DNA from: a virus
Lineage: Duplodnaviria > Caudoviricetes
Virus record (IMG/VR): IMGVR_UViG_3300012347_000028
Span: 1 to 42,027 of that record
Reading direction: 5' to 3' (one strand)
Length of the DNA: 42,027 nt
The position numbers and the translations under genes were made by a program. Shown one piece after another: positions 5,418 to 41,872 of the stretch. The notes beneath the pieces are model-generated. The model was given only the letters and a program-made list of their open reading frames with translations. It was not told the DNA's origin and ran no database searches. Each line of letters opens with the position of its first letter. The stretch's first letter is position 1.

Positions 5418-5449
5418 AAGCCGTCAAGACTTATTGTCTTGGCGGTTTT
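5418..5449 (+). terminator. Intrinsic terminator after major tail gene
   Basis: AAGCCGTCAAGAC-ttatt-GTCTTGGCGGTTT hairpin followed by T-rich tract. Confidence 0.75.
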
Positions 5450-5456
5450 GCATTTT

Positions 5457-5465
5457 TGGTATACT
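5457..5465 (+). promoter_or_regulatory. Extended -10 promoter (TGgTATACT), leaderless transcript
   Basis: -10 ends 6 nt before ATG 5472; no convincing SD. Confidence 0.65.
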
Positions 5466-5471
5466 TATAGG

Positions 5472-6152
5472 ATGGCAACTAAAGTATATGAAATAGAGCT
5501 AGTCAGCACGGTAGACGGACTGATCCTAGAAATAACACCACTTAAGATAAAGTTTCTCAGAGAGTTCCTTGTAGCATTCGAAGGCTTGAGATTATCCAAA
5601 GGTGAAGAAGCAGGGATGGATGCCCTGTCACGCTGCATCCTGATTACAATGAAGCAGTTCTTGCCAGAGATTAAGACGATAGAACAACTTGAAGACACGT
5701 TTGATCTTCCAACTATGTATAGAATTCTAGACATCGCTGCAGGTGTTAAGATTAACGAGAAGTCTCAGGAAACCCCAGTGGAACAAGCAAAGGAAAGCGG
5801 TACAAGCTGGGAAGACATGGACCTAGCTAAGTTAGAGTCAGAAGTATTTTTGCTGGGTATCTGGAAAGACTATGACGAACTAGAAACGTCTCTATCTATG
5901 CCAGAGCTAGTAGCAACACTAAGTGCAAAGCGAGACCTTGACTATAGCGAGAAGAAGTTCTTTGCAGCTATTCAAGGTGTAGACCTCGATGCCCAAACAG
6001 GTAAGTCAAATGCCTGGGAAGACATGAAGGCAAGAGTATTCAGTGGTGGTCAAGCCACCAGTGCAAATGACGTGCTAGCCCTACAAGGACAGAACGCAGC
6101 CAAGGCTGGTTTCGGTATTGGTATGGGGCTAGACTACGAAAGAATAGACTAA
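5472..6152 (+). CDS. Tail assembly chaperone, long form (G-T-like, in-frame fusion)
   Basis: Between major tail and TMP. N-terminal ~94 aa paralogous to the 6207 gene, plus an extra C-terminal domain. Start taken at MATKVY. Confidence 0.75.
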   Translation: MATKVYEIELVSTVDGLILEITPLKIKFLREFLVAFEGLRLSKGEEAGMDALSRCILITMKQFLPEIKTIEQLEDTFDLPTMYRILDIAAGVKINEKSQETPVEQAKESGTSWEDMDLAKLESEVFLLGIWKDYDELETSLSMPELVATLSAKRDLDYSEKKFFAAIQGVDLDAQTGKSNAWEDMKARVFSGGQATSANDVLALQGQNAAKAGFGIGMGLDYERID

Positions 6153-6206: not shown

Positions 6207-6527
6207 ATGACAACAACCATCAACGAACTAAAGACAGTCGATCTACTAGATGGAACTCAAATCAACGTAAGACCACTAAAGGTATCCCTACTTCGTGAAT
6301 TCACAAAGAAGTTTGAGGGCATTGCCGATGTAGCGGACGATAACGACAAATCAATTGACTTGCTAATGGAGTGTGTCCAGATTGCAATGAAGCAGTACAA
6401 GCCAGAGCTATCGACAGACGCAAAGGCACTTGAGGATCTTCTTGACCTCCCAACAGTATATAGAATCGTGGAAGAGGCATCTGGCATTAAGCTTGCAGAT
6501 GCAGCAATTCTAGGCGGTATTGCCTAA
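6207..6527 (+). CDS. Tail assembly chaperone, short form (G-like)
   Basis: 106 aa, directly upstream of TMP, strong RBS. Confidence 0.75.
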   Translation: MTTTINELKTVDLLDGTQINVRPLKVSLLREFTKKFEGIADVADDNDKSIDLLMECVQIAMKQYKPELSTDAKALEDLLDLPTVYRIVEEASGIKLADAAILGGIA

Positions 6528-6549: not shown

Positions 6550-9500
6550 ATGACTGATATCAACTCCAATGTTCGCTTAGATATAGACGGTAGCGGTGCG
6601 TTAGCGACTCTAAAAGAACTACAGAGACAGATATCAGTCTTTCAATCTGCAATGGCAAAAGGCAATGCAGCCAATAGGACTGCAGCCTCTAATCTTCAAA
6701 AAGATTTAATAAACAACATCAATGCGACTGGTCAGTTCGCAGCTTCTATGAAGGATGTTCGTACTGGCACAGAACAGTTCACAACCGCTCTAGAGAAAAA
6801 CAAGCTATCGCTTGGAGAGTACTTTAGATACGGCATGGGTTCTACCAAGACATTTGGTAGAATGTTCAAGACCGAGATGGCAACTGTAGAAAAGGTTGCT
6901 CGTGAACGTGTCAAGACAATTCAGACTCAGTACATCAAGCTAGGCAGAGATGCCAACGGTGCGATGAAGTCTATCGCTGTTAGACCACTAGCCCTTGACA
7001 TGGGAAACCTAGCTACCAAGACAGCTATCGCTGCTCAAAAGCAGCAGATCTTTAATCAGGTACTTAAGCAAGGTTCAACAAACCTTCTCAACTTCGGTAA
7101 GAACACCCAGTGGGCTGGTCGTCAGCTTATGGTTGGTTTTACAATCCCACTAACCATGTTTGCTACCACTGCTGGTAAGGCATTCATGGACATGGAAAAG
7201 CAGATTATTCGCTTGCGCCGTGTCTACGGTGACTTTAACACAACAGTACAGCAAACAGATGCCATGGTCGAAAGCGTTAGGAACCTAGCTAACGAGTTTA
7301 CCAAGTATGGTGTAGCCGTAGAAAAGACTATGGGTCTTGCTGCAGACGCAGCTGCCATGGGTAAGCAGGGAGCAGACCTAACTGCTCAGGTAACGGAAGC
7401 AACTCGACTAGCCGTTCTTGGTGGGGTAGAGCAGGCTCAAGCACTTGAGACTACAATTTCACTTACCAACGCATTCGGAACAGCAGCCGATAAGCTTGCA
7501 GGAAAGATTAACTTCCTGAACTCAGTAGAAAACCAGACGGTAACATCTATTGAAGACCTTACAATTGCTATTCCAAAGGCTGGTCCTGTAGTACAGCAGC
7601 TAGGTGGAGACGTAGAAGACCTAGCATTCTTCCTAACCGCTATGCGTGAGGGTGGTATTAATGCGTCAGAAGGTGCTAACGCACTAAAGTCTGGTCTCGC
7701 ATCCTTGATCAACCCAACAGCAAAGGCTTCTGAATTCCTACAAGGGTTCGGTATCAACATCAAGTCTATTGTTGAGTCAAACAAGGGAGACATCAGCGGT
7801 CTAGTCGTTGACTTCGCTTCTGCTCTGGATACCCTAGATCCTCTAAACCGTGCACGTGCAATCGAGCAGTTGTTCGGTAAGTTCCAGTTCTCACGTCTTT
7901 CTACACTATTCCAGAACGTAATCAAGGATGGCACCCAGGCATCGCAGGTACTGAAGCTAACAAGAAACAGCACAGAAGAACTTGCCATCGTAGCTGAGCG
8001 AGAACTAAAGAAGTTGGCAGACTCGCCACTTACTAAGTTCCAAAAGTCTGTAGAAGACCTTAAGGCATCTTTGATTCCACTAGGTGAGCAGTTTATCAAG
8101 ATTGCCACTCCTATTATAGAGTTTGCAACAAAGGCTCTAAAAGAATTCAGCAAGCTAGACGAAGGAGCTAAGGGCTTCGTTGTAGCCATGACTGCAGGTC
8201 TAGGCTTGATTGGTCCAGTAGCCATTATGACATTCGGTCTTTTGGCTAACGGTGTAGCCAACATTATCAAGGGCTTTGCAGCCATGAGAAATGTATTCCT
8301 GAAGCTAAAGGGTGGAACTGGTGCACTCGGTGAGAGCGTCAGCTACCTAACCCAGGAGCAGCTAGAGGCACTGTCAGTATCAGCTTCGTTGAACGCAGCT
8401 CACCAAAAGCTAAGACAGACCTATACCTCTGAGAAGAATGCAGTTGATAATCTAACAGCAGCCTACGTCAGAGCGACAACGGCTCAGGCTGGCTTTGCTG
8501 TTCCTGCCACAAAGAGATCTCGTCCAACAAAGAAGTATGCTAGCGGTGTTGTCTCGGTTCCAGGTCCAAAGGGTGCAGGCGACATTATTCCAGCTATGCT
8601 CGCCCCAGGCGAAGCAGTTATTCCTGCTAAGATGGCAAGCAAGTACTCTGGTCTAATCCAGGGTATGGTTGCAGGAAGCATCCCAGAATTTGCTAAGGGC
8701 TTCCTTGGTATGCCTAAGTCGTTCAAGCGTGTTTCTAAAGAGCGTGAAAACGCAAAGGAAATTTTTGACCTATTCCAGCAGAGCAAGAGATTTAAGGATC
8801 AGGCTCCAGAGAACTACATGGGTCAGGTTAAGTCAAGTGGTGGTCACAGCTTCCCAATATTCGGTTTGGGAGGTACATACCGTAAGCCAGATGGTTCTCA
8901 GGTATTTGTTAAGCCTGTTATGGATGAGAAGGCTGCCCTAGCCGAGGTACGTGCAACAAAGATTGCAAGAGAAGCTCATGGTCTACAGTCCCCAGAGCAG
9001 AGAATCGTAGTAATGAAGGATCCAACCGACAGGACTGGAACAAGAAAGTTCCTAGCTCTAGAGTCACCAGTTGATCCAAAGTTTGCAACACCTACTGGAA
9101 AGTTTACCAAGAAGCAGTACTTCCAGCAGCTTCTAGCATCCCTTGTAAGAGGAGATAAGGACCTTTCTGCTGACAACGTTTATGGAGATGTCTTGCCAGA
9201 CGTTGGTACAGCTGGTGTCTTTAGCCGTGCCTCTGGCGTACGTGACTACGAGCCAAACATGCCATCACTTGAAGAGCAGGCAAAGATCAACCTGCTTGCA
9301 GTAAAGGGTGGAGCAAAGAAGGCATTCGCAGAGTCAACAGCAGACATGGTTCGTGGCATGTCAGCACAAGAATACTCAAGTGCCATGCGCAACGAGATTG
9401 AGGAAGTTCTTCCAAAGCTAAAGGCAAGTATCAAGTCTATGAGCCTAGGTCCAGATGAGCTGCCTTACTATGAAGCAATGGTTAAGAGACTGGAAGACGG

Positions 9501-12500
9501 TAGAGGGGTAGACTGGACAAAGTTCCACGAGATTCACTCAGCTGTAGGTATGAACCCTAAGCAGTCTAAGAACGTAAAGAAGTATAACTCTGGTGTAGTC
9601 AGTGTGCCAGGAAGCGGTAACAAGGATACCATTCCTGCTATGCTTACTCCAGGCGAGGCAGTAATCCCAAAGAAGTATGCAAAGAAGTATGCTCCACTAA
9701 TCAATGCAATGGTAGATGGAAAGATTCCTGGATTCAACGGTGGACTAAAGGCAACACTACAGCGTTCACACCTACAAGAAGACCTCGACCTAGAAGATCC
9801 AAAGGTAAGAAAGATGCTTGCCGAACTAGGGTACGATTTTGGCTCTATGCCAAAGGATGTCAGAGACAACATGAAGCTGACAGGATCTCTAGTAGCTGAT
9901 CTTCCAGATAGACTAAACCAAAAGCTAAGAGAGAGCGGTTCTGGAGTATCGCCAGATGACTTCCTTAGATCTTGGAATGCAGTAGAGGATAAGCTAGCTC
10001 AAACTGCAATGCTAGGTGGAGTCGATATGTCTTCACGAGAAAACAAAGATTTGCTTGCTCAGCTAGAGCGTGAGATTGGTCAAGAAGTAGCAAAGACTGC
10101 TAGAAAAGAAAAGTCTCCAATTAAAGACAAGCTAGTAGCAAGAGTTACTAGAGAAGTTCTTGAAAGAAGAATTAACGCTGGGGGTCCTCTTGCAAGTCTA
10201 GCATCTGCAATAGACTCAAGACGTTTTGTGCCTGGCGACCTAAGAAGCAAGTATACTCACGCTGAAATAGACGCAGAGCTGAAGTCAGGTTCTGGCAAGT
10301 TTACTAGAGTAGGATCACAGGTTGTAGAGACTAAGTCTGGTATTACAATTGGTGGCTACCGTGCAAGAACTGGCAAGTTCAAGCAAAAGACTATGGGTGT
10401 CGCAGGTTCTGGTGGATACTTCGGTAAGGCAAAGCTCGGCAGGGTAACTGACAGAGACGAAGCCTTCATGACCTATCTAGACGACAGTCAAAGCGCAAAG
10501 TCTGCAAAAGCAACCAAGACCAGAGCATCTGACAAGGCTGCTCAAGATACCGTAGCTAGATCACTAAATAGAAGTTCTAAGTCACGCTCTCCATCAAAGA
10601 AGATGAAGCAGGCAACAGACAACATTGTTGACGGTGTTGAAGAAGGTCTTGAGGACGGTAAGAAGGCTGTAAAGGCTGCAGCTACACGTCTTGGAGAGAC
10701 TGCTGCACAGTCGTTTGAAGATGGCGGTACCAAGAGAGTTAAGCTAACTCAGTCTGGTAGATACATGAATAGAGATACTGGAAAGTTTATCTCTAAAGAA
10801 GAAGCCAAGAAGCTTATGGGCATGGACCTAAAGAATGCACGTGCAAGAGAGAGAGCAGCTGAACGTAAGGCTACTCCTACTGTAAAGATTGTTAAGCGTA
10901 AGCCAAGAGTCGCATCTGGCACACCTGAAGACGAAGATGCTAAAAAGCGTGGATATAGACCAAGCAAGGTTGGAATGCTTGGAAGCTCATTGGGCATGGG
11001 AGCCTCAATGGCTGGTGGCGCAATGGGCAATGAAGCACTTATGAATGCTGGAAACGTTGCATTCCTAGTCAGTGCCCTCGCTGATGTCGCAATGCTTTTC
11101 AAGGGCACAAAGGTTATCGACAATGTTAAAAACTTTGGTAGTGTCGTAAAGACTGCTTTTGGTGGTGCTAAGGCAGCCAGAGGAGCAGGAGCTGTTGGAA
11201 AGTCTGCAATCGCAGCTGGAAGGGCAGCAGCTGCTCAAGCTGGAACAAAGGCAGCTACAGGAATTGCCACAAGAGTCGGAGCTGGTTTAGCAGCACGTCT
11301 CGGTGCTAGCACCTTGGGTGGACCTGCAGCACCTGCATTAGCAGTTGGAGCAGTTGTTCTAACTGGAATCCAGTTGGGCGTAGAGCTATTTAACGAGAAG
11401 GTAAGAACAACCGCTGAAGAGTTGAGAGTCTTTGGCGACCACATGACTACAACTGGAAAAGAGATGGAATCTTTTGCAGTAGCAACAGGGCAGGCTACCC
11501 CAGATGCAATTATGGATCGTAAGAATGCCAAAAAGTTTTCTGCAATTAACTATGCAGCAGGAAAGACCCCATTCGGAGAGTCGTTCCTACAGTCAGAGGC
11601 TGGGTCTGCAATGCTTACTAAGACAGCAGAGCTAGCAGCAACAGACCGCAAGGCAGCAATCGAAGCGGTAGGAAAAGACCTAGCATATGCAGTTGTATCT
11701 GGACTAATGACACAAGAGCAGGCTAACTCAGTCGCTACTGCTCTAGGCAAGCAAATGGATGACTACACAATTAGCGTATCTCTAATTGGAAAGCTTCAAG
11801 AGGTAGTCGGGTTTGATGGATACGATGTTACCAAGAACCCTATTGACATTCCAGTAAACCTAATGATTACCTCGAATGGAAAGGCTCTGACAGATGTTGC
11901 TGGTCCGCTAAAAGACCTTATCAACACAGAGACAGGATTCTTTGACGGCGTGGATGCATGGGCTGACGTTCAGGCAAACGAAAAGGATGCAGCAGTTGCT
12001 GCTTCAGAGCTAGTCAATGGTGCTCAGCTAGTTCTAGATCTTCTAGACTCTGAGTATCTTCCAAAAATTGAAGAGCTAAACAAGAAGGGCAAGTTCGCAG
12101 AAGCAGACCAGCTAAGCTCAGAATACCTTAGCAAGCGAGGCGTTGCTCTAAAAGAATATAACTCTCAGTACGGATCATTCCTAAAGTCAGTACAAAAGAT
12201 GGAAGGCTTCAAGACAGCAATCGATTACGACATAAACGGAAAGCAAATTGCGGTTGCTTCTAGAGATGGAAAGAAGCAGCAGAACGTCGAAGGAATTGTT
12301 GAAAATATTCAGCAGAACATCAACACAGAATTCACTGGCGATGAGAATGCCCCAATGAGAAAGTTTGCTGAAAAGATTGCAGACGATGGACAAATTTCTG
12401 GTGCAGCTAAGATTTCATTTATGCTTAATGCAAAAGCAGGAAACATAGACCCAGAAAAAGGTCTCAAGCTATTCGAGAAGGGCGCAATCTTTGACCCAAA

Positions 12501-15027
12501 TAGCCCAGAGGGACAGAGAAACCAAAGCGCATATGTTACTATTTTCACTGAGCTTGGAGGTAGAGATGCTGCACAGTTTAGCGGTATTCTGGAAAATCTT
12601 GCTGCTGAAGGTGTTACCTCTGCAACCTTCATTGCTCAGGTACAGGCAAAGGGTAAGCCAGAAGACAAGAGAGACATTCTTAACCTATACAGTCTAATTG
12701 ACCAGTACGGTGGCGTTATCAATGCGGAGGCAACCTACAACTTCTTGGCAACAGGCGACAACCTAGAGGATACACTATCCAAGATCGATAAACTACAAAA
12801 GCTAGCAGACACTGGAAAACTTGACATTAAGTCAGTTCTAGAGCAGGAAATTATTACAGACCCTAATGACATAGCTGCATTTAAGGGCAACCAGGAATAC
12901 TTCGATAGCCTAGACCCAGTAAATAAGGTTCTATACCTACAGACATTCATGACAGTCCAGTATGACACATCCCAGGTTGACGCATACATTAAGGAAAATA
13001 CCAAGAATGGAACATACACAGATAAGTCTACTGGTAAAAAGATTAATTTTGCACAAGCTGGAAGAAACTCTATGGGTGCCGTTAGAGCACTTGCTGAATC
13101 ATCAATGGCACAGCGTGATGCAGAGCTTGTTACTGAAACAAATAAGCTAAACAATAAGAATAACAATAATAACAATAACAACACAGATGGCAGTGGTGGT
13201 CCAGACTCATCTTGGCTAGATGACTACGTCAGACGTGCAAAGAATGCCTTCAAGTGGACCCAGCAGCTGACCACTGGATTCAAAGCTTCTGCAGATGCCT
13301 TGAAGAAGTTTAAGGCTGCATCTGGTGGTGTCGGTCTTGAGCAGTATCTAAGAGAGAACTTGCAGTCAGTTGGTCTTTCTCCAGAAATGGTAGATATTAT
13401 ATCTAACCTGAGTGGCGACGAGCAAAAAGAATTTGTTAAGAGATACTTCAAGGGCGGTCAGATGTCCAAGGGTCTCAACAAAGATGGAGAGAGCCTAGTA
13501 GCATTTGATAGAAAGCTAGCTATTGAAGAGACTACAGATGCCTATGCAAAAGAAGCAAAGAATGCTCAGCAGGCTGCCAAGGCTAGAGACATGCTTATTG
13601 CAAAGGGATTCTCGGAGGCAGATGCTACAGAGCTAGCAGCCGATTCTCAAATTGCCTGGGCATTGACAAGTGCAAAGACCACAGAAGAGATCGACAAGCA
13701 GATTGCTAAGATTAAGGGACACATCAAGACTATCCAAGAGTCTAAGACTGTCAACCAACAGTTTGCTGAAATGTTCGATGAAGCAATGGGAATTATTGGC
13801 GACCGAAGAGAAGCAATTGAGATTAAGTTCGAAGCTGACACAAAGGCTCTAGAGGACGGAATTCGCAAGGCACAGGACCAGATCGACATCATTGTCAATG
13901 AGCCTGGAGGTATTGATGATCTTCAGTATGGTCTAGACCAAATTGGTTGGCAAGAAGATGAAATCAACAAGAAGTACGACAAGCGTCTAGATGCCCTAGA
14001 TAAGGTTGAGCAAGCCAGAAAGCGTGCTGTCCAGGCACAGCAAGCAGAGTTCGACCTAGCAAGAGCTATGGCTTCTGGAGACTCTTCGTCAGCAGCCTCT
14101 GCTATCCAAAAGTTTAGAGCAGACAAGGCTTCCTCTGCAGCAGATAACCGCAGAAGAATGCTTGAGCAGGCTCGTGACACAGAGATTAAGAATATTTCTG
14201 TACAGGTTAATGGAGTAAAGCTAACTCGTGACCAAATCGAGCAAAGCATCCTTGATAAGACAAAGCAGATTGCAAAGATTGAGGAAGACTCAATTGAGCC
14301 AGCACGCTACAAGATTCAGCTTATGGAGGATGCTAGAGACGATATCCTATCTACTCTTGCAGACCAAGAAATAAAGTGGAAGCTTCTAGACGCTCAAATT
14401 AAGAATGCAGCTTACAATGCTTGGGATTATGCCAAGGCAATTGGCGAGGCGAATACTCTGCTAGGCAACACTACAGCTCCTGCATCTGCTCCAGCAAGCA
14501 CAGGCACTGACAACAAGGCAATTCAAGCCGAGATTAACGAGCTAAACAGACTAATTGGAATAACTCGTGAAAACGTAGCAAACGAAAAGGATGCAAAGAA
14601 AAAGGCTGCCCTTATAGAAATAAACGAGGGAAGAATCAGAAAGGTTAGAGAGCTAACCCTAAAGCTTAACAACAATGCCGCACCAGCTGCACCACTAAAG
14701 CTTTCTGGTGGCGTAAGCAGAACCCAGTATGCTGCAACAGGCGGTATGATCAAGTACTTTGCAAATGGCGGTAAGCCACTAGGTTCAGACATTGTTCCAG
14801 CTATGCTAACCCCTGGTGAGTTTGTAATGAGCAAGTATGCAGTATCAAGCTTTGGTGCAGATAACATGAAGGCTATCAATAACGGCTCGTACAAGAACGA
14901 TTCAGTGTATAATTATGAAGTAAACATTAATGTTAAGTCTGACACAAATGCAGACCAGATTGCAAGAACTGTTATGATGCAGATTCAGCAGATTGATGCA
15001 CAGCGAGTTAGAGGAGGAAGAATCTAG
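6550..15027 (+). CDS. Tape measure protein with internal kinase-like domain and repeats
   Basis: 2825 aa, Ala/Lys-rich and helical; TP901-type core (GINASEGANALKSGL); hydrophobic segments; position after tail chaperones. Confidence 0.92.
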   Translation: MTDINSNVRLDIDGSGALATLKELQRQISVFQSAMAKGNAANRTAASNLQKDLINNINATGQFAASMKDVRTGTEQFTTALEKNKLSLGEYFRYGMGSTKTFGRMFKTEMATVEKVARERVKTIQTQYIKLGRDANGAMKSIAVRPLALDMGNLATKTAIAAQKQQIFNQVLKQGSTNLLNFGKNTQWAGRQLMVGFTIPLTMFATTAGKAFMDMEKQIIRLRRVYGDFNTTVQQTDAMVESVRNLANEFTKYGVAVEKTMGLAADAAAMGKQGADLTAQVTEATRLAVLGGVEQAQALETTISLTNAFGTAADKLAGKINFLNSVENQTVTSIEDLTIAIPKAGPVVQQLGGDVEDLAFFLTAMREGGINASEGANALKSGLASLINPTAKASEFLQGFGINIKSIVESNKGDISGLVVDFASALDTLDPLNRARAIEQLFGKFQFSRLSTLFQNVIKDGTQASQVLKLTRNSTEELAIVAERELKKLADSPLTKFQKSVEDLKASLIPLGEQFIKIATPIIEFATKALKEFSKLDEGAKGFVVAMTAGLGLIGPVAIMTFGLLANGVANIIKGFAAMRNVFLKLKGGTGALGESVSYLTQEQLEALSVSASLNAAHQKLRQTYTSEKNAVDNLTAAYVRATTAQAGFAVPATKRSRPTKKYASGVVSVPGPKGAGDIIPAMLAPGEAVIPAKMASKYSGLIQGMVAGSIPEFAKGFLGMPKSFKRVSKERENAKEIFDLFQQSKRFKDQAPENYMGQVKSSGGHSFPIFGLGGTYRKPDGSQVFVKPVMDEKAALAEVRATKIAREAHGLQSPEQRIVVMKDPTDRTGTRKFLALESPVDPKFATPTGKFTKKQYFQQLLASLVRGDKDLSADNVYGDVLPDVGTAGVFSRASGVRDYEPNMPSLEEQAKINLLAVKGGAKKAFAESTADMVRGMSAQEYSSAMRNEIEEVLPKLKASIKSMSLGPDELPYYEAMVKRLEDGRGVDWTKFHEIHSAVGMNPKQSKNVKKYNSGVVSVPGSGNKDTIPAMLTPGEAVIPKKYAKKYAPLINAMVDGKIPGFNGGLKATLQRSHLQEDLDLEDPKVRKMLAELGYDFGSMPKDVRDNMKLTGSLVADLPDRLNQKLRESGSGVSPDDFLRSWNAVEDKLAQTAMLGGVDMSSRENKDLLAQLEREIGQEVAKTARKEKSPIKDKLVARVTREVLERRINAGGPLASLASAIDSRRFVPGDLRSKYTHAEIDAELKSGSGKFTRVGSQVVETKSGITIGGYRARTGKFKQKTMGVAGSGGYFGKAKLGRVTDRDEAFMTYLDDSQSAKSAKATKTRASDKAAQDTVARSLNRSSKSRSPSKKMKQATDNIVDGVEEGLEDGKKAVKAAATRLGETAAQSFEDGGTKRVKLTQSGRYMNRDTGKFISKEEAKKLMGMDLKNARARERAAERKATPTVKIVKRKPRVASGTPEDEDAKKRGYRPSKVGMLGSSLGMGASMAGGAMGNEALMNAGNVAFLVSALADVAMLFKGTKVIDNVKNFGSVVKTAFGGAKAARGAGAVGKSAIAAGRAAAAQAGTKAATGIATRVGAGLAARLGASTLGGPAAPALAVGAVVLTGIQLGVELFNEKVRTTAEELRVFGDHMTTTGKEMESFAVATGQATPDAIMDRKNAKKFSAINYAAGKTPFGESFLQSEAGSAMLTKTAELAATDRKAAIEAVGKDLAYAVVSGLMTQEQANSVATALGKQMDDYTISVSLIGKLQEVVGFDGYDVTKNPIDIPVNLMITSNGKALTDVAGPLKDLINTETGFFDGVDAWADVQANEKDAAVAASELVNGAQLVLDLLDSEYLPKIEELNKKGKFAEADQLSSEYLSKRGVALKEYNSQYGSFLKSVQKMEGFKTAIDYDINGKQIAVASRDGKKQQNVEGIVENIQQNINTEFTGDENAPMRKFAEKIADDGQISGAAKISFMLNAKAGNIDPEKGLKLFEKGAIFDPNSPEGQRNQSAYVTIFTELGGRDAAQFSGILENLAAEGVTSATFIAQVQAKGKPEDKRDILNLYSLIDQYGGVINAEATYNFLATGDNLEDTLSKIDKLQKLADTGKLDIKSVLEQEIITDPNDIAAFKGNQEYFDSLDPVNKVLYLQTFMTVQYDTSQVDAYIKENTKNGTYTDKSTGKKINFAQAGRNSMGAVRALAESSMAQRDAELVTETNKLNNKNNNNNNNNTDGSGGPDSSWLDDYVRRAKNAFKWTQQLTTGFKASADALKKFKAASGGVGLEQYLRENLQSVGLSPEMVDIISNLSGDEQKEFVKRYFKGGQMSKGLNKDGESLVAFDRKLAIEETTDAYAKEAKNAQQAAKARDMLIAKGFSEADATELAADSQIAWALTSAKTTEEIDKQIAKIKGHIKTIQESKTVNQQFAEMFDEAMGIIGDRREAIEIKFEADTKALEDGIRKAQDQIDIIVNEPGGIDDLQYGLDQIGWQEDEINKKYDKRLDALDKVEQARKRAVQAQQAEFDLARAMASGDSSSAASAIQKFRADKASSAADNRRRMLEQARDTEIKNISVQVNGVKLTRDQIEQSILDKTKQIAKIEEDSIEPARYKIQLMEDARDDILSTLADQEIKWKLLDAQIKNAAYNAWDYAKAIGEANTLLGNTTAPASAPASTGTDNKAIQAEINELNRLIGITRENVANEKDAKKKAALIEINEGRIRKVRELTLKLNNNAAPAAPLKLSGGVSRTQYAATGGMIKYFANGGKPLGSDIVPAMLTPGEFVMSKYAVSSFGADNMKAINNGSYKNDSVYNYEVNINVKSDTNADQIARTVMMQIQQIDAQRVRGGRI
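8530..8700 (+). repeat. TMP internal repeat copy 1 (KKYASGVVSVPG..D.IPAML.PGEAVIP..KY..LI..MV.G.IP.F..G)
   Basis: Protein-level direct repeat with 9577-9744 and, more weakly, 14752-14886. Confidence 0.9.
8821..9540 (+). other. HipA/PI3K-like kinase domain within TMP
   Basis: Gly-rich GLGGTY, VFVK lysine, AEV glutamate, GDKDLSADN catalytic loop and DVG, in canonical order. Confidence 0.65.
9577..9744 (+). repeat. TMP internal repeat copy 2
   Basis: KKYNSGVVSVPGSGNKDTIPAMLTPGEAVIPKKYAKKYAPLINAMVDGKIPGFNGG. Confidence 0.9.
13141..13182 (+). repeat. AAT/AAC low-complexity tract encoding poly-Asn in TMP
   Basis: NKLNNKNNNNNNN. Confidence 0.85.
14752..14886 (+). repeat. TMP repeat copy 3 (C-terminal)
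   Basis: KYFANGGKPLGSDIVPAMLTPGEFVMSKYAV...AINNG. Confidence 0.8.
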
Positions 15028-15752
15028 TGGCAAACACACAAGCCTACATGGCAGGTCGTAAGAAGTACAGCAGACCACAGGCGATTCTCCTAGCAGACAA
15101 TTCTGGAACTATCGTATCTTACACAGATCCAACTACCAATCAAACAGCTAATTTCCACATACCACTGGGGTATGAGTACGGAAACGCTGCTGGAGAAGAT
15201 CCTACATTCATTATTCTTTCAGATGATAATAGATCTCCAATCAACTTCTCCAACACTAGACTAGAAAAGCGTGAGCGTATGATTAATGGTCGTATGCGTT
15301 CATATCACATTGCTGACAAGCTAAACATTGATGTTTCTTGGAACTTGCTTCCGTCTAGAGCATTTACTACTAATCCAGAGTTCGGATCATCTGGAACTCC
15401 AACAGGGCTAGTCACGTCTACTGACCACGACAACAACCAGGCAACAGCCACAAAGACCGTGAAGCCATATGGCTCACCTTTCTATAAAGACCAGCAATAT
15501 ACCACCGATGGTGGTGCTGGCGGTGTTGATATTTTGGACTGGTATAGGAATCACCAGGGACCATTCTACGTTTACCTAGCCTATGATAACTATAAGAACT
15601 TTACTTCTGACGATCCATATGCTAACCTAGATAAATACAACGAAGTCATTGAAGTATACTTCTCTAGATTTGATTACACCGTAGAGCGTAGAGGAAGCGT
15701 TGGAACAGGTTATGACTTCTGGAACATAACCATGTCACTGGAAGAGGTTTAA
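15027..15752 (+). CDS. Distal tail / minor tail protein
   Basis: First gene after TMP, GTG start overlapping the TMP stop; ERMINGRMRSYH and WNITMSLEEV resemble Dit-like proteins. Confidence 0.65.
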   Translation: MANTQAYMAGRKKYSRPQAILLADNSGTIVSYTDPTTNQTANFHIPLGYEYGNAAGEDPTFIILSDDNRSPINFSNTRLEKRERMINGRMRSYHIADKLNIDVSWNLLPSRAFTTNPEFGSSGTPTGLVTSTDHDNNQATATKTVKPYGSPFYKDQQYTTDGGAGGVDILDWYRNHQGPFYVYLAYDNYKNFTSDDPYANLDKYNEVIEVYFSRFDYTVERRGSVGTGYDFWNITMSLEEV

Positions 15753-26981: not shown

Positions 26982-29900
26982 ATGAGCTACGTTGGACTTC
27001 ACGTTCACACACACTACAGTCTTTTTGACGGCATTGCAACACCTACCGAATATGTAGATAGGGCTGCAGAACTTGGCATGTCAGCCATTGCCATCACAGA
27101 CCACGGCTCCTTGTCAGGACACCGTGAGATGTACCGTGTTGCCAAAGAAAAGGGTGTCAAGCCTATCCTGGGTATCGAGGGGTACATCACCAAGGACCGC
27201 TTCGACCATGAAGACAAGAAGGAAAAGAATGACCTACTTGACCTTAACTATAACCACCTTATTATCCTTGCAAAGAATGCAAAGGGTCTAGAGAACCTTA
27301 ATAAGCTTAACGAACTAGCCTGGACCGATGGTTTCTACAAGAAGCCTCGTATGGACTGGCAGATCCTAGAGCAGTACAAAGAGGGTCTAATCATTACGTC
27401 TGGGTGTCTATCTGGCTTCCTAGCTAAAGCAATCGAGGCAGATAATCTTGCTGTTGCTAAGGAACACATCCAGTGGGCAAAGTCTACCTTTGGTGACGAC
27501 TACTACATTGAGGTAATGCCTCACAACCCTGCAGAAGTCAACAAGCTTCTTCTAGAGCTTGCAGATGAGTTCGGGGTAAAGCCAGTGGTCACTCCAGACT
27601 GCCACCACTCAGACCCATCTCAAAAAGAGATTCAAGAACTAAAGCTTATCCTAAACTCATACTCAAATAAGATTGAGAAGGATGCCACATACGACAAGTC
27701 GCTGAAGTACGACAACCTTATGGACAAGTTGGACTACCTGTATGGCGCAGACCGTCAGATGTCATTCAACAAGTTCGACATTCACCTACTGTCTGATGAA
27801 GAGATGCGTAACGCCATGATGGCACAGGGCATTGACCGTGAGGACATGTACGCTAACACCAACGAGATTGCTAGCAAGATTGAAGACTATGACATCAAGG
27901 ATCATGCCAATCTGCTTCCTGTACAGTACCAGAACCCAGACCTAGAGTTGGCTAACCTTGCTATGCAGGGTTTGCGTGACCGTGGCATTGCGGATAAAGA
28001 GGGGTACGTAGAGAGACTTGAAGAAGAACTAAAGGTAATTGCAGACAAGAACTTTGGACCATACTTCCTAGTAGTACGCAACATGATTGCGTGGGCTAAG
28101 AAGGAGGACATCATGGTTGGACCAGGACGTGGTTCTGCTGCAGGTTCGCTACTCTGCTATGCCCTAGGTATTACAGACATTGATCCTATCCAGCACGGCT
28201 TGCTGTTCTTCCGTTTCATCAATCCAGAGCGTAACGACTTTCCAGATATCGATACAGACATTCAGGACTCTCGTCGTGAAGAGGTTAAGGACTATCTAGT
28301 TCGTCAGTATCGACACGTTGCGTCTATCGCAACATTCCTTGAGTTTAAGGATAAGGGTGTCGTTCGAGACATTGCACGTGTTCTAAACATACCACTGCCT
28401 GATGTAAACAAGGTTCTAAAAGTAATTGACACTTGGGACGACTACTGCAGCTCTAAGCAGGCTGCTTGGTTCCGTGAGAAGTATCCAGAGATTGAGCGAT
28501 ATGGAGACCTACTTCGTGGTCGCATCCGTGGTACTGGTATTCACGCTGCAGGTGTTGTTACTGCCAAGGAGCCTATCTTCCGCTACGCACCAATGGAGAC
28601 TCGTCAGTCCCCAGGATCTGGTGAGCGTATCCCAGTAGTTGCGGTAGACATGGAAGAGGCAGAGCGTATTGGTCTTATTAAGATTGACGCACTTGGTCTA
28701 AAGACCCTGTCTGTTATTCAGGATACCCTTAAGATTATTCAGAGCCGTAGTGGTAAGAAGATTGACCTGCTGTCTCTAAACATGGAGGAGCCAAAGGTAT
28801 ACGAGATGCTGTCATCTGGTTACACCAAGGGCGTGTTCCAGTGTGAAGCGACACCATACACCAACTTGCTAGTCAAGATGGGTGTAAAGAACTTTGCCGA
28901 ACTTGCTGCATCTAACGCTCTCGTGCGTCCAGGTGCTGCTAACACCATCGGTAAGGACTACATCGCACGTAAGCACGGTAAGCAGAACATCGCATACCAC
29001 CACCAGGTTATGAAGGCTTTTACTGCAGAGACCTATGGATGCATCTTGTACCAGGAACAGGTTATGCAGGCTTGTACAGAGCTTGGCGGTATGACCATGG
29101 CTGAGGCTGACAAGGTTCGTAAGATTATTGGTAAGAAGAAGGACGCTAAAGAGTTTAAGCAGTTCCAGGACAAATTTGTTCAGGGTGCTTCACGCTTTAT
29201 CCAGACACCAGTAGCAGAAGAGCTTTGGCACGACTTTGAGGCTCACGCAGGGTACTCGTTTAACAAGTCCCACGCTGTTGCATACTCAACCGTATCCTAC
29301 TGGACTGCATGGCTAAAGTACTACTACCCACTAGAGTTCATGTACTCTCTTCTAAAGAACGAGAAGGACAAGGATGCACGTACTGAGTACTTGATCGAAG
29401 CTAAGCGTATGAATATTCCTATTCGCCTACCACACATCAACGAGTCAGACAATGACTTCAAGATTGAGGGCAAGGGTATTCGATTCGGTCTAACTGGAAT
29501 CAAGTACATCTCTGAGAACGCTGCTAAGGTTTGCATGGACAATAGACCATTCAACTCATATGAGCAGGTTCGTGAACTCTTTTCACAAAAGGGTAATGGC
29601 GTGACCAGTAGACAGTTGGAAGCTCTCCGCAAGGTTGGTGCACTTACATTCCCAGACATGGCAAGAAACGATGAAGAGATTCGTGAGCACCTGTACGAGT
29701 ACCTGAACCTACCAGAGTTTAATATCACCGTTCCATCGCACTACTACGCTTTTATTGCTGGGGTAGAGGACTTCGAAGAGAAGGGTTCCTTTATCCTAAT
29801 GGGCATGGTAAAAGCTATTAAGCGTGGCAAGGGTTGGTCTCGTGTAGAGATCCTAGACAAGACTGGTAGTGTTGGCATCTTCGACGATGAGCAGACTACA

Positions 29901-30257
29901 ATCGAGCCAGGCAAGACCTACTTGCTATTGGCTAGCGACAATAGAATTACTAATGCAATTCAGGTAGACGACCTAAAGACTACAGACTCTGCACTAGTGA
30001 AGTTCCTGAATTATAAGCAGTTGCCTTACAAGGATGAGGAGATGTACGTAATCTCATTTAAATCCAGGGTAACTAAGGCAGGAAAGAAAATGGCAACACT
30101 AACTCTAGCAGACTCTGCAAGAGAGTTGCACTCAGTAACTGTATTCCCTACGAACTATTCAAAGGCTTATATGAAGGTTCAAGAGGGTAACGCATACAAA
30201 TTTGATTTTGGCAAAACCAAAGACGGAACAGTAATTATGGAGGATGTACATGTTTGA
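26982..30257 (+). CDS. dnaE: DNA polymerase III alpha subunit (family C)
   Basis: PHP HVHTHYS/TDHG, GPGRGSAAGS, FPDIDTD, GIHAAG, KIDALGL, YSFNKSHA. Confidence 0.97.
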   Translation: MSYVGLHVHTHYSLFDGIATPTEYVDRAAELGMSAIAITDHGSLSGHREMYRVAKEKGVKPILGIEGYITKDRFDHEDKKEKNDLLDLNYNHLIILAKNAKGLENLNKLNELAWTDGFYKKPRMDWQILEQYKEGLIITSGCLSGFLAKAIEADNLAVAKEHIQWAKSTFGDDYYIEVMPHNPAEVNKLLLELADEFGVKPVVTPDCHHSDPSQKEIQELKLILNSYSNKIEKDATYDKSLKYDNLMDKLDYLYGADRQMSFNKFDIHLLSDEEMRNAMMAQGIDREDMYANTNEIASKIEDYDIKDHANLLPVQYQNPDLELANLAMQGLRDRGIADKEGYVERLEEELKVIADKNFGPYFLVVRNMIAWAKKEDIMVGPGRGSAAGSLLCYALGITDIDPIQHGLLFFRFINPERNDFPDIDTDIQDSRREEVKDYLVRQYRHVASIATFLEFKDKGVVRDIARVLNIPLPDVNKVLKVIDTWDDYCSSKQAAWFREKYPEIERYGDLLRGRIRGTGIHAAGVVTAKEPIFRYAPMETRQSPGSGERIPVVAVDMEEAERIGLIKIDALGLKTLSVIQDTLKIIQSRSGKKIDLLSLNMEEPKVYEMLSSGYTKGVFQCEATPYTNLLVKMGVKNFAELAASNALVRPGAANTIGKDYIARKHGKQNIAYHHQVMKAFTAETYGCILYQEQVMQACTELGGMTMAEADKVRKIIGKKKDAKEFKQFQDKFVQGASRFIQTPVAEELWHDFEAHAGYSFNKSHAVAYSTVSYWTAWLKYYYPLEFMYSLLKNEKDKDARTEYLIEAKRMNIPIRLPHINESDNDFKIEGKGIRFGLTGIKYISENAAKVCMDNRPFNSYEQVRELFSQKGNGVTSRQLEALRKVGALTFPDMARNDEEIREHLYEYLNLPEFNITVPSHYYAFIAGVEDFEEKGSFILMGMVKAIKRGKGWSRVEILDKTGSVGIFDDEQTTIEPGKTYLLLASDNRITNAIQVDDLKTTDSALVKFLNYKQLPYKDEEMYVISFKSRVTKAGKKMATLTLADSARELHSVTVFPTNYSKAYMKVQEGNAYKFDFGKTKDGTVIMEDVHV

Positions 30258-30585
30258 TGAACTAGCTGAACAGCTGCACGAAACAGCAGTAGAAAAAGGT
30301 TTCTGGAAGGTCGTTGACGACGCTTCCGCAGAGCAGACGGATATCTTTATCACCAAGCAGCTAATGATGATTGTATCAGAGGCTACGGAGGTTATGGAGG
30401 CTATTCGTAAGGATAAGGGCGAGGAAGAGATCGCAGATGAGATGGCAGACATTCTCATCCGCACACTAGATCTCTACGCTGGTCTAGTCGAGCACGGCTA
30501 TACCAGAATGTCCCTAGACTACGCATTTGAGAAGAAGACTAATGTAAATAAGTCTAGAGCAGAGAAGCACGGAGTAAGATTCTAA
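30250..30585 (+). CDS. MazG-like nucleotide pyrophosphohydrolase
   Basis: SEATEVMEAIRK...EEIADEMADILIR acidic motif; RBS GGAGG favours ATG 30250. Confidence 0.8.
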   Translation: MFDELAEQLHETAVEKGFWKVVDDASAEQTDIFITKQLMMIVSEATEVMEAIRKDKGEEEIADEMADILIRTLDLYAGLVEHGYTRMSLDYAFEKKTNVNKSRAEKHGVRF

Positions 30586-31592
30586 TGACGACTATGGAAG
30601 AAGCAATGGCTTTGCTAGATCCAAAGCTACGCAAGAAGGTCCAGGCAGCAGTTGGCATTGAGACAGAGTTTCAGCCAACACCAAGTCCAGGTCTTAACAG
30701 AGCACTAGGTGGAGGCTTGCCATATGGTAGACAGGTTCTGCTGTGGGGTAGCAAGTCTAGTGCAAAGTCTTCTATGTGCCTACAGATGATTGGTCTGGCT
30801 CAGAAGGAAGGCAAGCTGTGTGCATGGGTAGACGCAGAGATGTCGTACGATGAATCATGGGCAAAGCGACTTGGAGTAGATACTTCACAGCTAATTTACT
30901 CAGAGGCACGAAGCATCAACGACATGACTGACGTAACCGTAGCATTGCTAAATGCAGGAGTTGACCTTATTGTCATCGACAGTATTAGCTCTCTTCTGCC
31001 AGCGGTATACTTCGAGAAGGACTCTACGGAGCTAAAGCAACTTGACCAGACTAAGCAGATTGGTTCTGAGTCTAAGGACCTTAAGCACGCATGGCTAATG
31101 ATTAACTACGCAAACAACCGTGAGAAGCCAGCACTTATCGTTGCAATCTCTCAGGCACGTAATAACATTACTGCTATGTACACTCAGCAACAGCCTACAG
31201 GGGGCTTGACAACTCAGTACATGTCGTCTACAATTATTAAGTTGTTCTCATCTACATCGGACTCACAGGCTATCAAGGCTAAGCTTCCGATCGGAGACAA
31301 GCTTATTGAGCAGAAGGTAGGTCGTAAGGTTCGTTGGGAAGTCACTAACTCAAAGACATCTGCCCCAGGCGATAGCGGAGAGTACGACTTCTACTTTAAG
31401 GGAGACCTGATTGGAATCGATGTAATTGCTGACCTAGTTGATACTGCAGAGATGAATGGTCTCGTGGAGAGAACTGGTGCATGGTACATCATTCAGGATG
31501 GCTCTAAGGTGCAGGGTAGGGATGCATTCATTAACTATGTTAAGAATAACCCAGAGTATCAGGAAGAACTAAAGGCAAAACTAAGTGTCTAA
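30585..31592 (+). CDS. recA: RecA/UvsX-like recombinase
   Basis: LGGGLPYGR, WVDAE, IVIDSI, TGAWY, VQGRD. Confidence 0.9.
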   Translation: MTTMEEAMALLDPKLRKKVQAAVGIETEFQPTPSPGLNRALGGGLPYGRQVLLWGSKSSAKSSMCLQMIGLAQKEGKLCAWVDAEMSYDESWAKRLGVDTSQLIYSEARSINDMTDVTVALLNAGVDLIVIDSISSLLPAVYFEKDSTELKQLDQTKQIGSESKDLKHAWLMINYANNREKPALIVAISQARNNITAMYTQQQPTGGLTTQYMSSTIIKLFSSTSDSQAIKAKLPIGDKLIEQKVGRKVRWEVTNSKTSAPGDSGEYDFYFKGDLIGIDVIADLVDTAEMNGLVERTGAWYIIQDGSKVQGRDAFINYVKNNPEYQEELKAKLSV

Positions 31593-32961: not shown

Positions 32962-33768
32962 ATGGCAAAGAATCTGTTGCAACAAGTTATGCTCAAGGTA
33001 GAGGACAAGGCTTCTAGCAAGCCTTCGTTCCTCGACCGTGACGCTCTGATTCAAAAGATCAACTCTGGATATACTATTAATCGTGTAGATAAGTTTGCTC
33101 AAAAGAAAACTTTCGCACCTAGCACCATTGCATATTCGCATGGAGAGTGTCCAAGGTACTGGTACCTAGCATTCGAAGGTGCTACATTCACCGATAATGC
33201 AGACGCATACGGTGGTGCAAACATGACTGCTGGTACAAAGTCTCACGAGCGTATTCAGGAGGCTATGGGCAACGTGCCTGGCTTCCTAGTAGACTCAGAG
33301 TTTAAGGTAACCTACAATGACCCACCTATCTTTGGTTACGGTGACGTAATCCTAAAGTGGGACGATGAAGATCTACTGGGTGAAATTAAGACCATGCCAC
33401 ACGAGGGCTTCGAGTATCGTAAGGCAAGCGGTAAGCCAAAGACTGGACACCTGATCCAGCTGCTTATCTATATGAAGATTCTAAACAAGACGAAAGCAGT
33501 CTTGATTTATGAAAACAAAAACAATCATGACCTACTGATCATTCCAGTAGAGATTAATGATTACTATGTACGGTGGGTAAACCAAGCATTTGACTGGATG
33601 AGAACGGTAAGAAAGGCGTGGGAAGAGAAAACACTTCCTAGCAAGAACTACCGATCTAATTCTAAAATCTGTAAGACGTGTCCTCTTAAGGCTACGTGTA
33701 CAGAGGCTGGCGAGGGACTATTGAAGATTAAGTCCTTGGAGCCGTTAGATGAAACACAAGCACTGTGA
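32962..33768 (+). CDS. Cas4-like (PD-(D/E)xK, Fe-S) exonuclease
   Basis: CPRYWY, GTKSHE, GYGD, EIKT, QLLIY, CKTCPLKATC. Confidence 0.85.
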   Translation: MAKNLLQQVMLKVEDKASSKPSFLDRDALIQKINSGYTINRVDKFAQKKTFAPSTIAYSHGECPRYWYLAFEGATFTDNADAYGGANMTAGTKSHERIQEAMGNVPGFLVDSEFKVTYNDPPIFGYGDVILKWDDEDLLGEIKTMPHEGFEYRKASGKPKTGHLIQLLIYMKILNKTKAVLIYENKNNHDLLIIPVEINDYYVRWVNQAFDWMRTVRKAWEEKTLPSKNYRSNSKICKTCPLKATCTEAGEGLLKIKSLEPLDETQAL

Positions 33769-35061: not shown

Positions 35062-35590
35062 GGACCAACTAGTAGAACACCTTGACCAAGTAAATAAGGT
35101 CGTAGAGAAGTATCTGACTGGTGCTGACGCTACCCAGATTTCTAAAGAACTTGTAATGCCAAGACAAAAGGTAGTGGCATACATCAACGAGTGGCGTTCA
35201 ATGGCTGCAGATAATGCTGCTATTCGTGCTCGTGCTAAGGAAGCACTTGTGGGTGCAGATACCCACTACTCAAAGCTTATCTCCAAGGCATACGAGGTTA
35301 TTGACGAGGCTACCACAACAGCTAACCTGCAGGCAAAGACCGCAGGCATTAAGCTAGTCATGGACCTGGAGTCTAAGCGTATTGATATGCTACAGAAGGC
35401 TGGTCTTCTAGAGAATAAAGAACTCGCAGAAGAAATGGTTGAGATTGAGCGTAAGCAGGATGTCCTTGTGAATATCCTAAAAGACATTGCGTCAGAGTAT
35501 CCGCAGATCCGTGACGAGATTATGCGTAGACTATCTTCTGTATCTAAGGAAAAAGAAGTAATTACCGTGGTGGTCAATAACGATGTTTGA
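35051..35590 (+). CDS. HTH protein, probable terminase small subunit
   Basis: N-terminal HTH (ATQISKELVMPRQKV) plus coiled coil; overlaps start of large terminase. Confidence 0.55.
   Translation: MSTEDQLVEHLDQVNKVVEKYLTGADATQISKELVMPRQKVVAYINEWRSMAADNAAIRARAKEALVGADTHYSKLISKAYEVIDEATTTANLQAKTAGIKLVMDLESKRIDMLQKAGLLENKELAEEMVEIERKQDVLVNILKDIASEYPQIRDEIMRRLSSVSKEKEVITVVVNNDV

Positions 35591-38813: not shown

Positions 38814-38821
<8 letters not shown>
38420..38821 (+). CDS. nrdI: Class Ib ribonucleotide reductase flavodoxin NrdI
   Basis: [28 protein letters not shown]. Confidence 0.95.

Positions 38822-41872
<3,051 letters not shown>

What the first reader, a model, noticed from the sequence alone, without database searches (positions are those of the whole stretch)
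8530..9744. Kinase-like effector domain carried as a repeat-flanked cassette inside the tape measure protein
Seen: TMP aa ~758-997 is not helical tape. It has protein-kinase-fold motifs in canonical order: Gly-rich GLGGTY, beta3 Lys (VFVK, K788), alphaC Glu (ALAEV, E799), catalytic loop GDKDLSADN (D871...N876) and a DFG-equivalent DVG (D884). It sits between two copies of a ~57-aa repeat. Established: HipA and PI3/PI4 kinases use D-x-H-x-x-N plus DxG-type loops; TMPs leave the tail during infection, and known TMP cargo is mostly peptidoglycan hydrolases. Inference: this phage delivers a pre-made kinase with its DNA, before any phage transcription, possibly for host takeover or anti-defence. 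The repeats may mark an exchangeable and/or proteolytically released cargo slot, making the TMP a polymorphic effector carrier. The usual catalytic-loop His is replaced by Ser, so activity is not guaranteed.
Basis: partly seen in the sequence, partly recalled or inferred. Interest (0 to 1): 0.88.

Follow-up and report, generated by a model that had tools for sequence, protein, structure and literature searches.

The report
Kinase cargo in phage tail ruler
The tail-length "ruler" protein of an uncultured freshwater phage holds an internal domain predicted to fold as an atypical kinase, in a slot that related phages fill with other modules, so it likely carries a ready-made kinase into the host along with the phage DNA.

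Summary
Observation confirmed, with one correction. The 2,825-aa tape measure protein (TMP, 6550-15027) holds a 253-aa domain (aa 752-1004). Its AlphaFold model (pLDDT 93) matches atypical kinases: CotH Z 11.9, MavQ 10.3, PI4KIIa 10.2, CtkA 10.1, HipA 9.4. K788, E799, N876 and D884 are invariant in 158-170 aligned homologues, D871 in 169 of 170; dN/dS is about 0.12. The missing His is a variable position, so not a sign of decay. The family has 176 clusters and no Pfam hit; every complete copy examined lies in a TMP. The slot is exchangeable: 18 of 47 related TMPs carry the kinase, others carry different modules or none. The correction: the 57-aa repeat is not cassette-specific. A third copy lies at the C-terminus, all 47 relatives carry it, it matches the TMPs of Douge, JBD30 and lambda, and it fences the kinase on both sides in only 38 of 122 homologues. 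It does mark swap points. Activity, substrate, delivery, cleavage and host are untested. TMP-borne enzymes and virion kinases have precedents; ten paper searches found no TMP kinase. This scan noted the same architecture on three other genomes.

The parts
6550..15027 (+). Tape measure protein gene, 2,825 aa, the longest ORF in the window
   Evidence: PF10145 E 1e-23; TIGR01760 102.6 bits, cut-off 28.8; PHROG tape-measure families
7282..7878 (+). Conserved tape-measure core (PhageMin_Tail, aa 245-443) in the N-terminal half shared by all relatives
   Evidence: aa 1-650 covered by 47 of 47 relatives
8167..8280 (+). First hydrophobic block (aa 540-577), predicted membrane-spanning; upstream edge of the cargo bay
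   Evidence: Kyte-Doolittle peak at aa ~540-580 in 48 of 48 TMPs
8530..8700 (+). Joint repeat, copy 1 (aa 661-717)
   Evidence: D678, G687, E688 invariant in 129 copies; two predicted helices, pTM 0.42
8803..9561 (+). Atypical kinase-fold domain (aa 752-1004)
   Evidence: model; fold matches; conservation; dN/dS 0.11-0.13
8863..8946 (+). N-lobe motifs: Gly loop (G775), beta3 K788, alphaC E799
   Evidence: G775 157/157, K788 158/158, E799 163/163 of rows with a residue there
9148..9207 (+). Catalytic loop R867-x-D869-K870-D871-L-S-x-x-N876 and metal-binding D884-V-G886
   Evidence: D871 169/170, N876 170/170, D884 169/169, R867 163/170
9577..9744 (+). Joint repeat, copy 2 (aa 1010-1065)
9751..10359 (+). 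Second variable module of unknown function (aa ~1068-1270); follows the single repeat directly in kinase-less L020
   Evidence: no Pfam or NCBIfam hit; Atlas hits under 0.9
11044..11394 (+). Second hydrophobic block (aa 1499-1615); downstream edge of the cargo bay
14752..14904 (+). Joint repeat, copy 3 (aa 2735-2785), near the C-terminus

Best explanation
The tape measure protein carries a conserved domain predicted to be an ATP-dependent atypical kinase in a swappable bay, and likely delivers it into the host cytoplasm at DNA ejection, where it would phosphorylate host targets, most likely proteins, before any phage gene is expressed. Shown by the calls: the gene is a TMP; the catalytic residues are near-invariant and under purifying selection; the bay lies between two hydrophobic blocks; relatives gain, lose and swap its modules, mostly at the joint repeat. 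Predicted: the kinase fold. Inferred: the chain is stored largely unfolded in the tail tube and ejected; the hydrophobic blocks insert in the cytoplasmic membrane and leave the bay inside; the kinase refolds and uses host ATP. With only 3-6 TMP copies per virion in studied siphophages, it would have to act catalytically. The repeat is a duplicated copy of the usual TMP C-terminal joint that insulates modules. Cutting at it is possible but not required. The purpose, blunting an early defence or redirecting host machinery, is inferred by analogy with T7 kinase.
For: Fold: pLDDT 93; CotH Z 11.9 (rmsd 3.9, 215 aligned), MavQ 10.3, PI4KIIa 10.2, CtkA 10.1, HipA 9.4. Catalytic residues conserved across 174 proteins; dN/dS 0.13 and 0.11 in two pairs. 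Of 181 proteins with the domain, 126 have the TMP N-terminus, 50 have TMP-matching flanks and 5 are partial fragments. Other bay cargo includes cofactor-dependent enzymes: HIGH nucleotidyltransferase (L090 PF01467 E 3e-5; L001 and L090 phrog_3041), HAD phosphatase (L047 E 1e-17; P0098), weak GNAT (L001). The bay lies between hydrophobic blocks in 48 of 48. Exchange: 8 gains or losses on the N-terminal tree, 7 forced by starred branches; L040 and L083 have 97% identical N-termini but 51% identical kinases; L020 is an empty-slot form. Precedent for a cytoplasmic enzyme inside an intact virion TMP: P23-45 gp96 RNA polymerase (PMC10770324, section 7). T7 kinase disarms defences (PMC13645617, passages).
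Against: No activity, virion or host data exist. The kinase is absent from 29 of 47 relatives, so it is dispensable. The loop lacks a fixed basic residue two places after the catalytic Asp; PMC4702295 (passages) links that residue to protein substrates, which favours a small-molecule substrate. Sequence identity to solved kinases is only 6-17%, and Foldseek TM-scores reach 0.43 at most. Membrane sidedness rests on hydropathy alone. Kinase presence is clustered on the tree (8 changes against 15.0 shuffled), and a 9-member clade appears in both trees, so much inheritance is vertical. A kinase made late in the producing cell could harm it unless held unfolded.
Confidence: 0.55

Rival explanations
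1. It is delivered the same way but phosphorylates a small molecule or lipid (phosphatidylinositol, a cell-wall precursor or a nucleotide) near the membrane where the TMP is anchored, helping entry or countering nucleotide signalling.
For: Lipid kinases MavQ and PI4KIIa tie with protein kinases in Z. No fixed Lys/Arg/His at D+2 (PMC4702295). Neighbouring cargo includes nucleotidyltransferase and phosphatase domains. Actinobacterial membranes contain phosphatidylinositol (recalled).
Against: The top hit CotH, and CtkA, HipA and Fam20, are protein kinases. R867 (163/170) and K870 (153/170) could supply the basic residue. The host is not shown to be an actinobacterium.
Confidence: 0.22
2. The kinase works in the producing cell or on the phage's own tail (self-phosphorylation, or a RIO-like ATPase switch), is cut out at the joints during tail assembly, and never reaches the next host.
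For: T5 pb2 is cut after R1127 (PMC10038345), directly before an A-x-G-G stretch that resembles the start of the repeat by eye. Lambda gpH is cut near its C-terminus (PMC12617516), where the repeat profile scores 7.0 bits against a best of 3.6 in 500 shuffles. The D-L-S-x-x-N loop is RIO-like.
Against: In 47 of 122 homologues neither side of the kinase is close to a repeat, so excision cannot be general. T5 pb2C and lambda gpHC stay in the virion after cutting. The repeat profile did not match T5 pb2. A late intracellular enzyme would not need to be fused to the TMP.
Confidence: 0.15
3. It is an inactive kinase-fold filler or binding module that only sets tail length or binds a host factor.
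For: Dispensable in 29 of 47 relatives; no His in the loop.
Against: All five catalytic positions are fixed across homologues as distant as 40% identity; dN/dS about 0.12.
Confidence: 0.08

Closest known systems
Thermus phage P23-45 gp96, TMP fused to a virion RNA polymerase (PMC10770324; passages and section 7)
   Same: A cytoplasm-acting enzyme inside a giant TMP, present in virions as part of the full-size protein; some relatives lack it.
   Different: That cargo is an N-terminal RNA polymerase with proven activity. Here it is an internal kinase in a bay with many alternative modules.
Polyvalent proteins of phages and conjugative elements, including their kinase family (Iyer 2017, PMC5512222; passages)
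   Same: Large multidomain proteins thought to be injected with the DNA, carrying kinase, GNAT, NTase and ART domains that vary by cassette.
   Different: Their kinases lack the C-terminal subdomain and occur in Verrucomicrobia-Chlamydia and Bacteroidetes (pro)phages. The main text has 0 occurrences of 'tape measure'. This domain keeps a helical C-lobe.
CotH / HipA / CtkA / PI4KII / Fam20 atypical kinase clade
   Same: Fold (Z 8.4-11.9) and the K-E-D-N-D catalytic set.
   Different: 6-17% identity, no Pfam hit, no catalytic-loop His, and found only inside TMPs.
PI3/4-kinase-like domains in phage portal, head-morphogenesis and ADP-ribosyltransferase fusion proteins (BFVD rows: Mycobacterium phage Onyinye A0A6B9L6W7, A0A6J5S481, A0A6J5MJB0)
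   Same: Kinase-fold domains of the same clade in large phage proteins, some named as structural (best TM 0.55).
   Different: Head-associated rather than in the TMP; 12-18% identity; database names only, function untested as far as seen here.
T7 kinase gp0.7 / JSS1_004 (PMC13645617; passages)
   Same: Phage kinase acting early on host proteins; the functional analogy for anti-defence.
   Different: An expressed early gene with a DPV motif and a DNA-binding shut-off domain, not a virion part. No direct comparison was run.
Mycobacteriophage TMP motifs 1-3 (PMC1796659) and T5 pb2 muralytic C-terminal piece (PMC10038345); passages
   Same: Enzyme domains embedded in TMPs; processing of the TMP.
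   Different: These act on the cell wall outside the membrane and need no ATP.
JBD30 TMP 'hook', residues 1022-1066 (PMC11445458; passages)
   Same: The repeat profile matches residues 1018-1054 of that TMP (E 1.6e-4); two helices are predicted in both.
   Different: There it is one C-terminal element with a speculated cut. Here it is copied internally and bounds cargo modules.

Membership tests
Siphophage tape measure protein | Tape-measure profile above the curated cut-off | tested here: met
   PF10145 84.7 bits vs 33.2; TIGR01760 102.6 vs 28.8
Siphophage tape measure protein | Longest gene, within the tail gene block | tested here: met
   head genes upstream, minor tail genes (phrog_10359, phrog_9983) downstream
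Protein-kinase-like fold superfamily | Two-lobed fold: beta-sheet N-lobe with alphaC, helical C-lobe | tested here: met
   predicted model; Z up to 11.9 over 215 residues
Protein-kinase-like fold superfamily | Conserved beta3 Lys, alphaC Glu, catalytic Asp and Asn, metal-binding Asp | tested here: met
   their assignment to kinase roles rests on order and spacing, as model coordinates could not be read
Protein-kinase-like fold superfamily | ATP-dependent phosphotransfer | not testable with these tools
   needs an assay
HipA family | HipA Pfam profile match | tested here: not met
   no hit in 27 of 27 members; the Atlas's nearest named cluster is 46% HipA_2, 149 shared features, a lead only
HipA family | D-x-H-x-x-N catalytic loop (motif from the finding and recalled) | tested here: not met
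   His in 4 of 170 rows
HipA family | Stand-alone toxin gene with a HipB or HipS partner | tested here: not met
   no complete stand-alone copy among 181 proteins
PI3/PI4 lipid kinases (PF00454) | Pfam profile match | tested here: not met
PI3/PI4 lipid kinases (PF00454) | Phosphoinositide substrate | not testable with these tools
   fold ties lipid and protein kinases
CotH kinases | CotH Pfam profile match | tested here: not met
   no hit, although CotH is the top fold match at 10% identity
Polyvalent-protein kinase of Iyer 2017 | Loss of the whole C-terminal subdomain | tested here: not met
   the model has five helices after the DVG motif
Polyvalent-protein kinase of Iyer 2017 | Insert between a conserved His and Asp | tested here: not met
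   no conserved His before D871; the loop is R-G-D-K-D
MuF-type polymorphic toxin | Variable toxin at the C-terminus | tested here: not met
   cargo is internal, aa 720-1480 of 2,825
MuF-type polymorphic toxin | Adjacent immunity gene | tested here: inconclusive
   the next ORF (15027-15752, 241 aa) has no Pfam or PHROG hit; its position suggests a tail gene
Cleaved TMP (lambda gpH / T5 pb2 type) | Proteolysis at a defined site near the joint | not testable with these tools
   repeat profile matches lambda gpH weakly and not T5 pb2; the T5 site resembles it only by eye

The most novel reading that the evidence does not exclude
TMPs of this large freshwater siphophage group are effector polyproteins. 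Internal copies of the tail's own C-terminal processing joint are cut, releasing interchangeable enzymes (a TMP-only kinase family, nucleotidyltransferases, phosphatases, unknowns) into the cytoplasm ahead of the DNA. The 57-aa joint, with its invariant Asp and Glu, would be the self-cutting or cut-marking element that also explains the unsolved cleavage of lambda gpH and T5 pb2.
Probability: 0.25. Interest if true: 0.9.

Novelty: new variant of a known kind. Interest (0 to 1): 0.66.

Why it matters
Known TMP cargo is mostly wall hydrolases, plus one RNA polymerase. A kinase family of 176 clusters, seen only in TMPs, would be a route for modifying the host before any phage gene is read; known anti-defence kinases such as T7's must first be expressed. 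The swappable bay is a catalogue of unknown early effectors in abundant uncultured freshwater phages. The joint gives a testable handle on an open question: how TMPs are cut (PMC12617516 states that the catalyst of lambda gpH cleavage is unknown). Cultured phages such as Douge carry internal copies of the joint, so it can be tested without culturing this phage.

Tried and rejected
Sequence libraries gave no significant hit for the kinase domain: Pfam, PHROGs, NCBIfam, PDB sequences (its protein kinase C rows are weak, E 0.12 or worse, and were disregarded). No match among 50,697 cultured-phage records at E 0.01 and two chance-level rows at E 10. No relative in GTDB genomes by the close-relative scan, so no host name came from it. 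'Repeat specific to the cassette' rejected. 'His loss means inactive' rejected as an argument. Assembly artefact rejected. No joint skipping the cassette was seen in 4 of 4 runs laid; these are contigs, so this shows nothing about rare excision. No RNA holder was listed. The repeat model is low-confidence (pTM 0.42) and its fold search had no hit at E 0.001, so no protease fold could be assigned. The repeat profile did not match T5 pb2. The module after repeat 2 stayed unidentified. Most other cargo modules had no family hit.
Full report
Setting. The window is a 42-kb linear virus record, estimated 39% complete. It encodes head and tail genes, DnaB, primase, a DnaE-type polymerase, RecA, a terminase and a class Ib ribonucleotide reductase. 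ORF 6550-15027 (2,825 aa) is the tape measure protein (PF10145; TIGR01760 above cut-off). Its N-terminal half is closest to TMPs of ~132-kb Streptomyces phages among cultured records, at about 33% identity, so an actinobacterial host is inferred, not shown. Near-identical DNA is held by 20 listed runs of 10 studies, mostly freshwater metagenomes, two of them possible sources.

Observation. The repeats at aa 661-717 and 1010-1065 share 38 of 57 residues and 99 of 165 bases. A third copy lies at aa 2735-2785. A contig from another study spans 7500-11000 without gaps, with 66 differing letters.

The domain has a predicted kinase fold. No sequence library recognised it. A 27-sequence alignment gave a model with pLDDT 93.0 and pTM 0.90: a beta-sheet N-lobe with one long helix, then a helical C-lobe. 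Foldseek returned kinase-fold entries with weak E-values (1 at E <= 0.001; best TM 0.43 to CtkA). Alignment to 48,161 solved chains ranked CotH (Z 11.9, rmsd 3.9, 215 aligned), MavQ (10.3), PI4KIIa (10.2), CtkA (10.1), HipA (9.4) and Fam20 (9.2) first; all 50 listed rows are kinase-fold proteins. It belongs with the atypical CotH/HipA/PI4K/Fam20 group by fold. It fails the sequence tests for each named family. Among predicted viral structures the closest are large phage proteins named portal, ADP-ribosyltransferase or PI3/4-kinase, at 12-18% identity.

It looks maintained as an enzyme. A profile search found 176 clusters at E <= 0.001, of which 150 were listed. With this gave 174 proteins, one of them the window's own. 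Among rows with a residue at the position: G775 157/157, K788 158/158, E799 163/163, D871 169/170, N876 170/170, D884 169/169; also R867 163/170 and D/N869 170/170. Position 873, where HipA and PI3K have His, is S64, Q38, G31, A17, K15, H4, T1. RIOK-3 kinases have LVH(G/A)DLSE(F/Y)N (PMC4265397, passage), the same D-L-S-x-x-N. dN/dS is 0.13 and 0.11 against two relatives, versus 0.06 for the N-terminal half. Against a protein substrate: PMC4702295 (passages) ties a basic residue in this loop to protein phosphorylation, and none is fixed at D+2 here.

It is a TMP domain. Of 181 proteins with the domain, 126 carry the TMP N-terminus, 50 more have flanks matching TMPs, and 5 are partial fragments. 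The 26 weakest clusters were not seen. No cultured phage record and no GTDB genome (close relatives only) matched.

The slot is exchangeable. 28 of 80 have the kinase. After dropping 19 open-ended or short ones and 14 near-copies, 18 of 47 do. Residues 1-650 are shared by 47 of 47, and the stretch after about aa 720 is a mosaic. The same upstream module occurs with the kinase (L038, L055, L076) and without it (L036, L042, L044, L058, L088). L020 is an empty form: its single repeat aligns to both window copies and runs straight into the module that follows repeat 2 here. The window thus equals that layout plus a 348-aa kinase-and-repeat unit. On a quick tree of the N-terminal half the kinase needs 8 gains or losses, 7 forced by starred branches; shuffles average 15.0, so it is also clustered (the careful search did not finish). 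L040 and L083 share 97% of the N-terminus but 51% of the kinase. A 9-member clade appears in both trees, so deeper inheritance is partly vertical. Other cargo with a family hit: HIGH nucleotidyltransferase (L001, L090), HAD phosphatase (L047, P0098), weak GNAT (L001), weak DUF3626 (L014, L016, L053); most modules have none. In 48 of 48 TMPs the bay lies between a hydrophobic block at aa 540-580 and a later one.

The repeat is a general joint. All 47 relatives have it at about aa 655-725 and near the C-terminus; 16 have extra internal copies. It closely flanks the kinase on both sides in 4 of 18 local relatives and 38 of 122 wider homologues with full flanks; 34 have it upstream only, 3 downstream only, 47 neither. 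It still marks swap points: of 92 close pairs, 75 show a sharp identity drop and 57 of these fall in a repeat, against 13% of positions expected. These pairs are not independent, and copy 1 is also simply the end of the conserved half. L031/L032 break at the second copy, and the window/L013 pair drops there less sharply (0.86 to 0.46, just outside the 75); L046/L078 break at the kinase's end with no repeat. In 129 copies D678, G687 and E688 are invariant; the model is low-confidence with two helices. The profile matches TMPs of solved phages: Douge gp16 twice internally (E 1e-21), JBD30 at 1018-1054, and a third weakly (E 0.15). The JBD30 stretch is the predicted 'hook' with a speculated cut at 1066 (PMC11445458, passages). 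Lambda gpH scores 7.0 bits near its C-terminus against a best of 3.6 in 500 shuffles; T5 pb2 is not matched. T5's mapped cut after R1127 (PMC10038345, passages) falls just before an A-x-G-G stretch that resembles the repeat's start by eye only. A single repeat copy also hits 459 cultured-phage records at E 10, and most of the 30 rows listed are TMPs.

Mechanism. Most likely (0.55), the TMP is held largely unfolded in the tail, is ejected, anchors by its hydrophobic blocks with the bay in the cytoplasm, and the kinase refolds and phosphorylates host proteins before phage expression. The sequence facts and conservation are shown, the fold is predicted, and storage, sidedness, activity, substrate and purpose are inferred. 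Rivals: a lipid or small-molecule substrate (0.22), a role in assembly with no delivery (0.15), inactive filler (0.08).

Novelty. Enzymes in TMPs are known: wall hydrolases (PMC1796659, passages) and a virion RNA polymerase within full-size gp96 (PMC10770324, passages and section 7). Kinases in injected polyvalent proteins are known but are of another build (PMC5512222, passages). Anti-defence phage kinases are known as expressed genes (PMC13645617, passages). I also saw passages of PMC6802176, PMC7824862, PMC12617516, PMC10713586 and PMC13033339; none describes a TMP kinase or this joint as a cargo boundary in the passages shown. Ten searches of the open library (listings and abstract starts) showed no such paper. 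Subscription journals are mostly missing, and no supplements were read; File S2 of Iyer 2017 could bear on this. Three earlier notes of this scan describe the same joint-and-cargo layout on other genomes; they supplied the leads to T5, lambda and P23-45, which I checked here, and are not independent support. A look-up by this domain's sequence found no look-alike window. Verdict: a new variant of a known kind, interest 0.66.

Noticed in passing
window 5439-6152 and 6207-6527: Two adjacent ORFs before the TMP both match phrog_10504; the upstream one carries phrog_10474 in frame after it. This looks like a long and a short tail-assembly chaperone as two genes, long first, rather than the usual frameshift pair.
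   Followed up: no
window 35583-37364: The terminase large subunit lies among replication genes, about 35 kb from the head genes.
   Followed up: no
window 26982-30257, 30585-31592, 32962-33768, 38420-41872: DnaE-type polymerase, RecA, Cas4-like nuclease and an nrdI-nrdE-nrdF ribonucleotide reductase set.
   Followed up: no
window about 13150-13185: A poly-Asn run followed by Gly/Ser residues inside the TMP, seen in the translation; possibly a flexible linker.
   Followed up: no
window 12973-13137 (TMP aa 2142-2196): Weak match to LPD3, a polyvalent-protein domain (E 0.005, below cut-off).
   Followed up: no
L016 aa 2895-3382, L032 aa 2640-3126, L076 aa 2671-3522: A second repeat-bounded bay of 350-730 aa near the C-terminus, with modules of no known family.
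   Followed up: partly
L047:9152-10564; P0098 aa 1458-1591: A HAD phosphatase in the same TMP as the kinase, a possible kinase-phosphatase pair or an RNA-end-healing domain.
   Followed up: partly
L001:8706-9848; L090:11006-12448: A HIGH-family nucleotidyltransferase directly after (L001) or before (L090) the kinase.
   Followed up: partly
L046 aa 1313-1425; L078 aa 1397-1502; L004-L006 aa 905-990: Tandem, degenerate double copies of the joint.
   Followed up: no
L005:7674-7710: The TMP is in two overlapping ORFs with the frame change just upstream of the kinase; it may be a sequencing error.
   Followed up: no
L093 (T5 pb2) and L094 (lambda gpH), C-terminal regions: Lambda gpH has the joint with an aromatic-A-T-G-G motif at both ends, like the window's copies; T5's mapped cut precedes a similar short motif.
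   Followed up: partly
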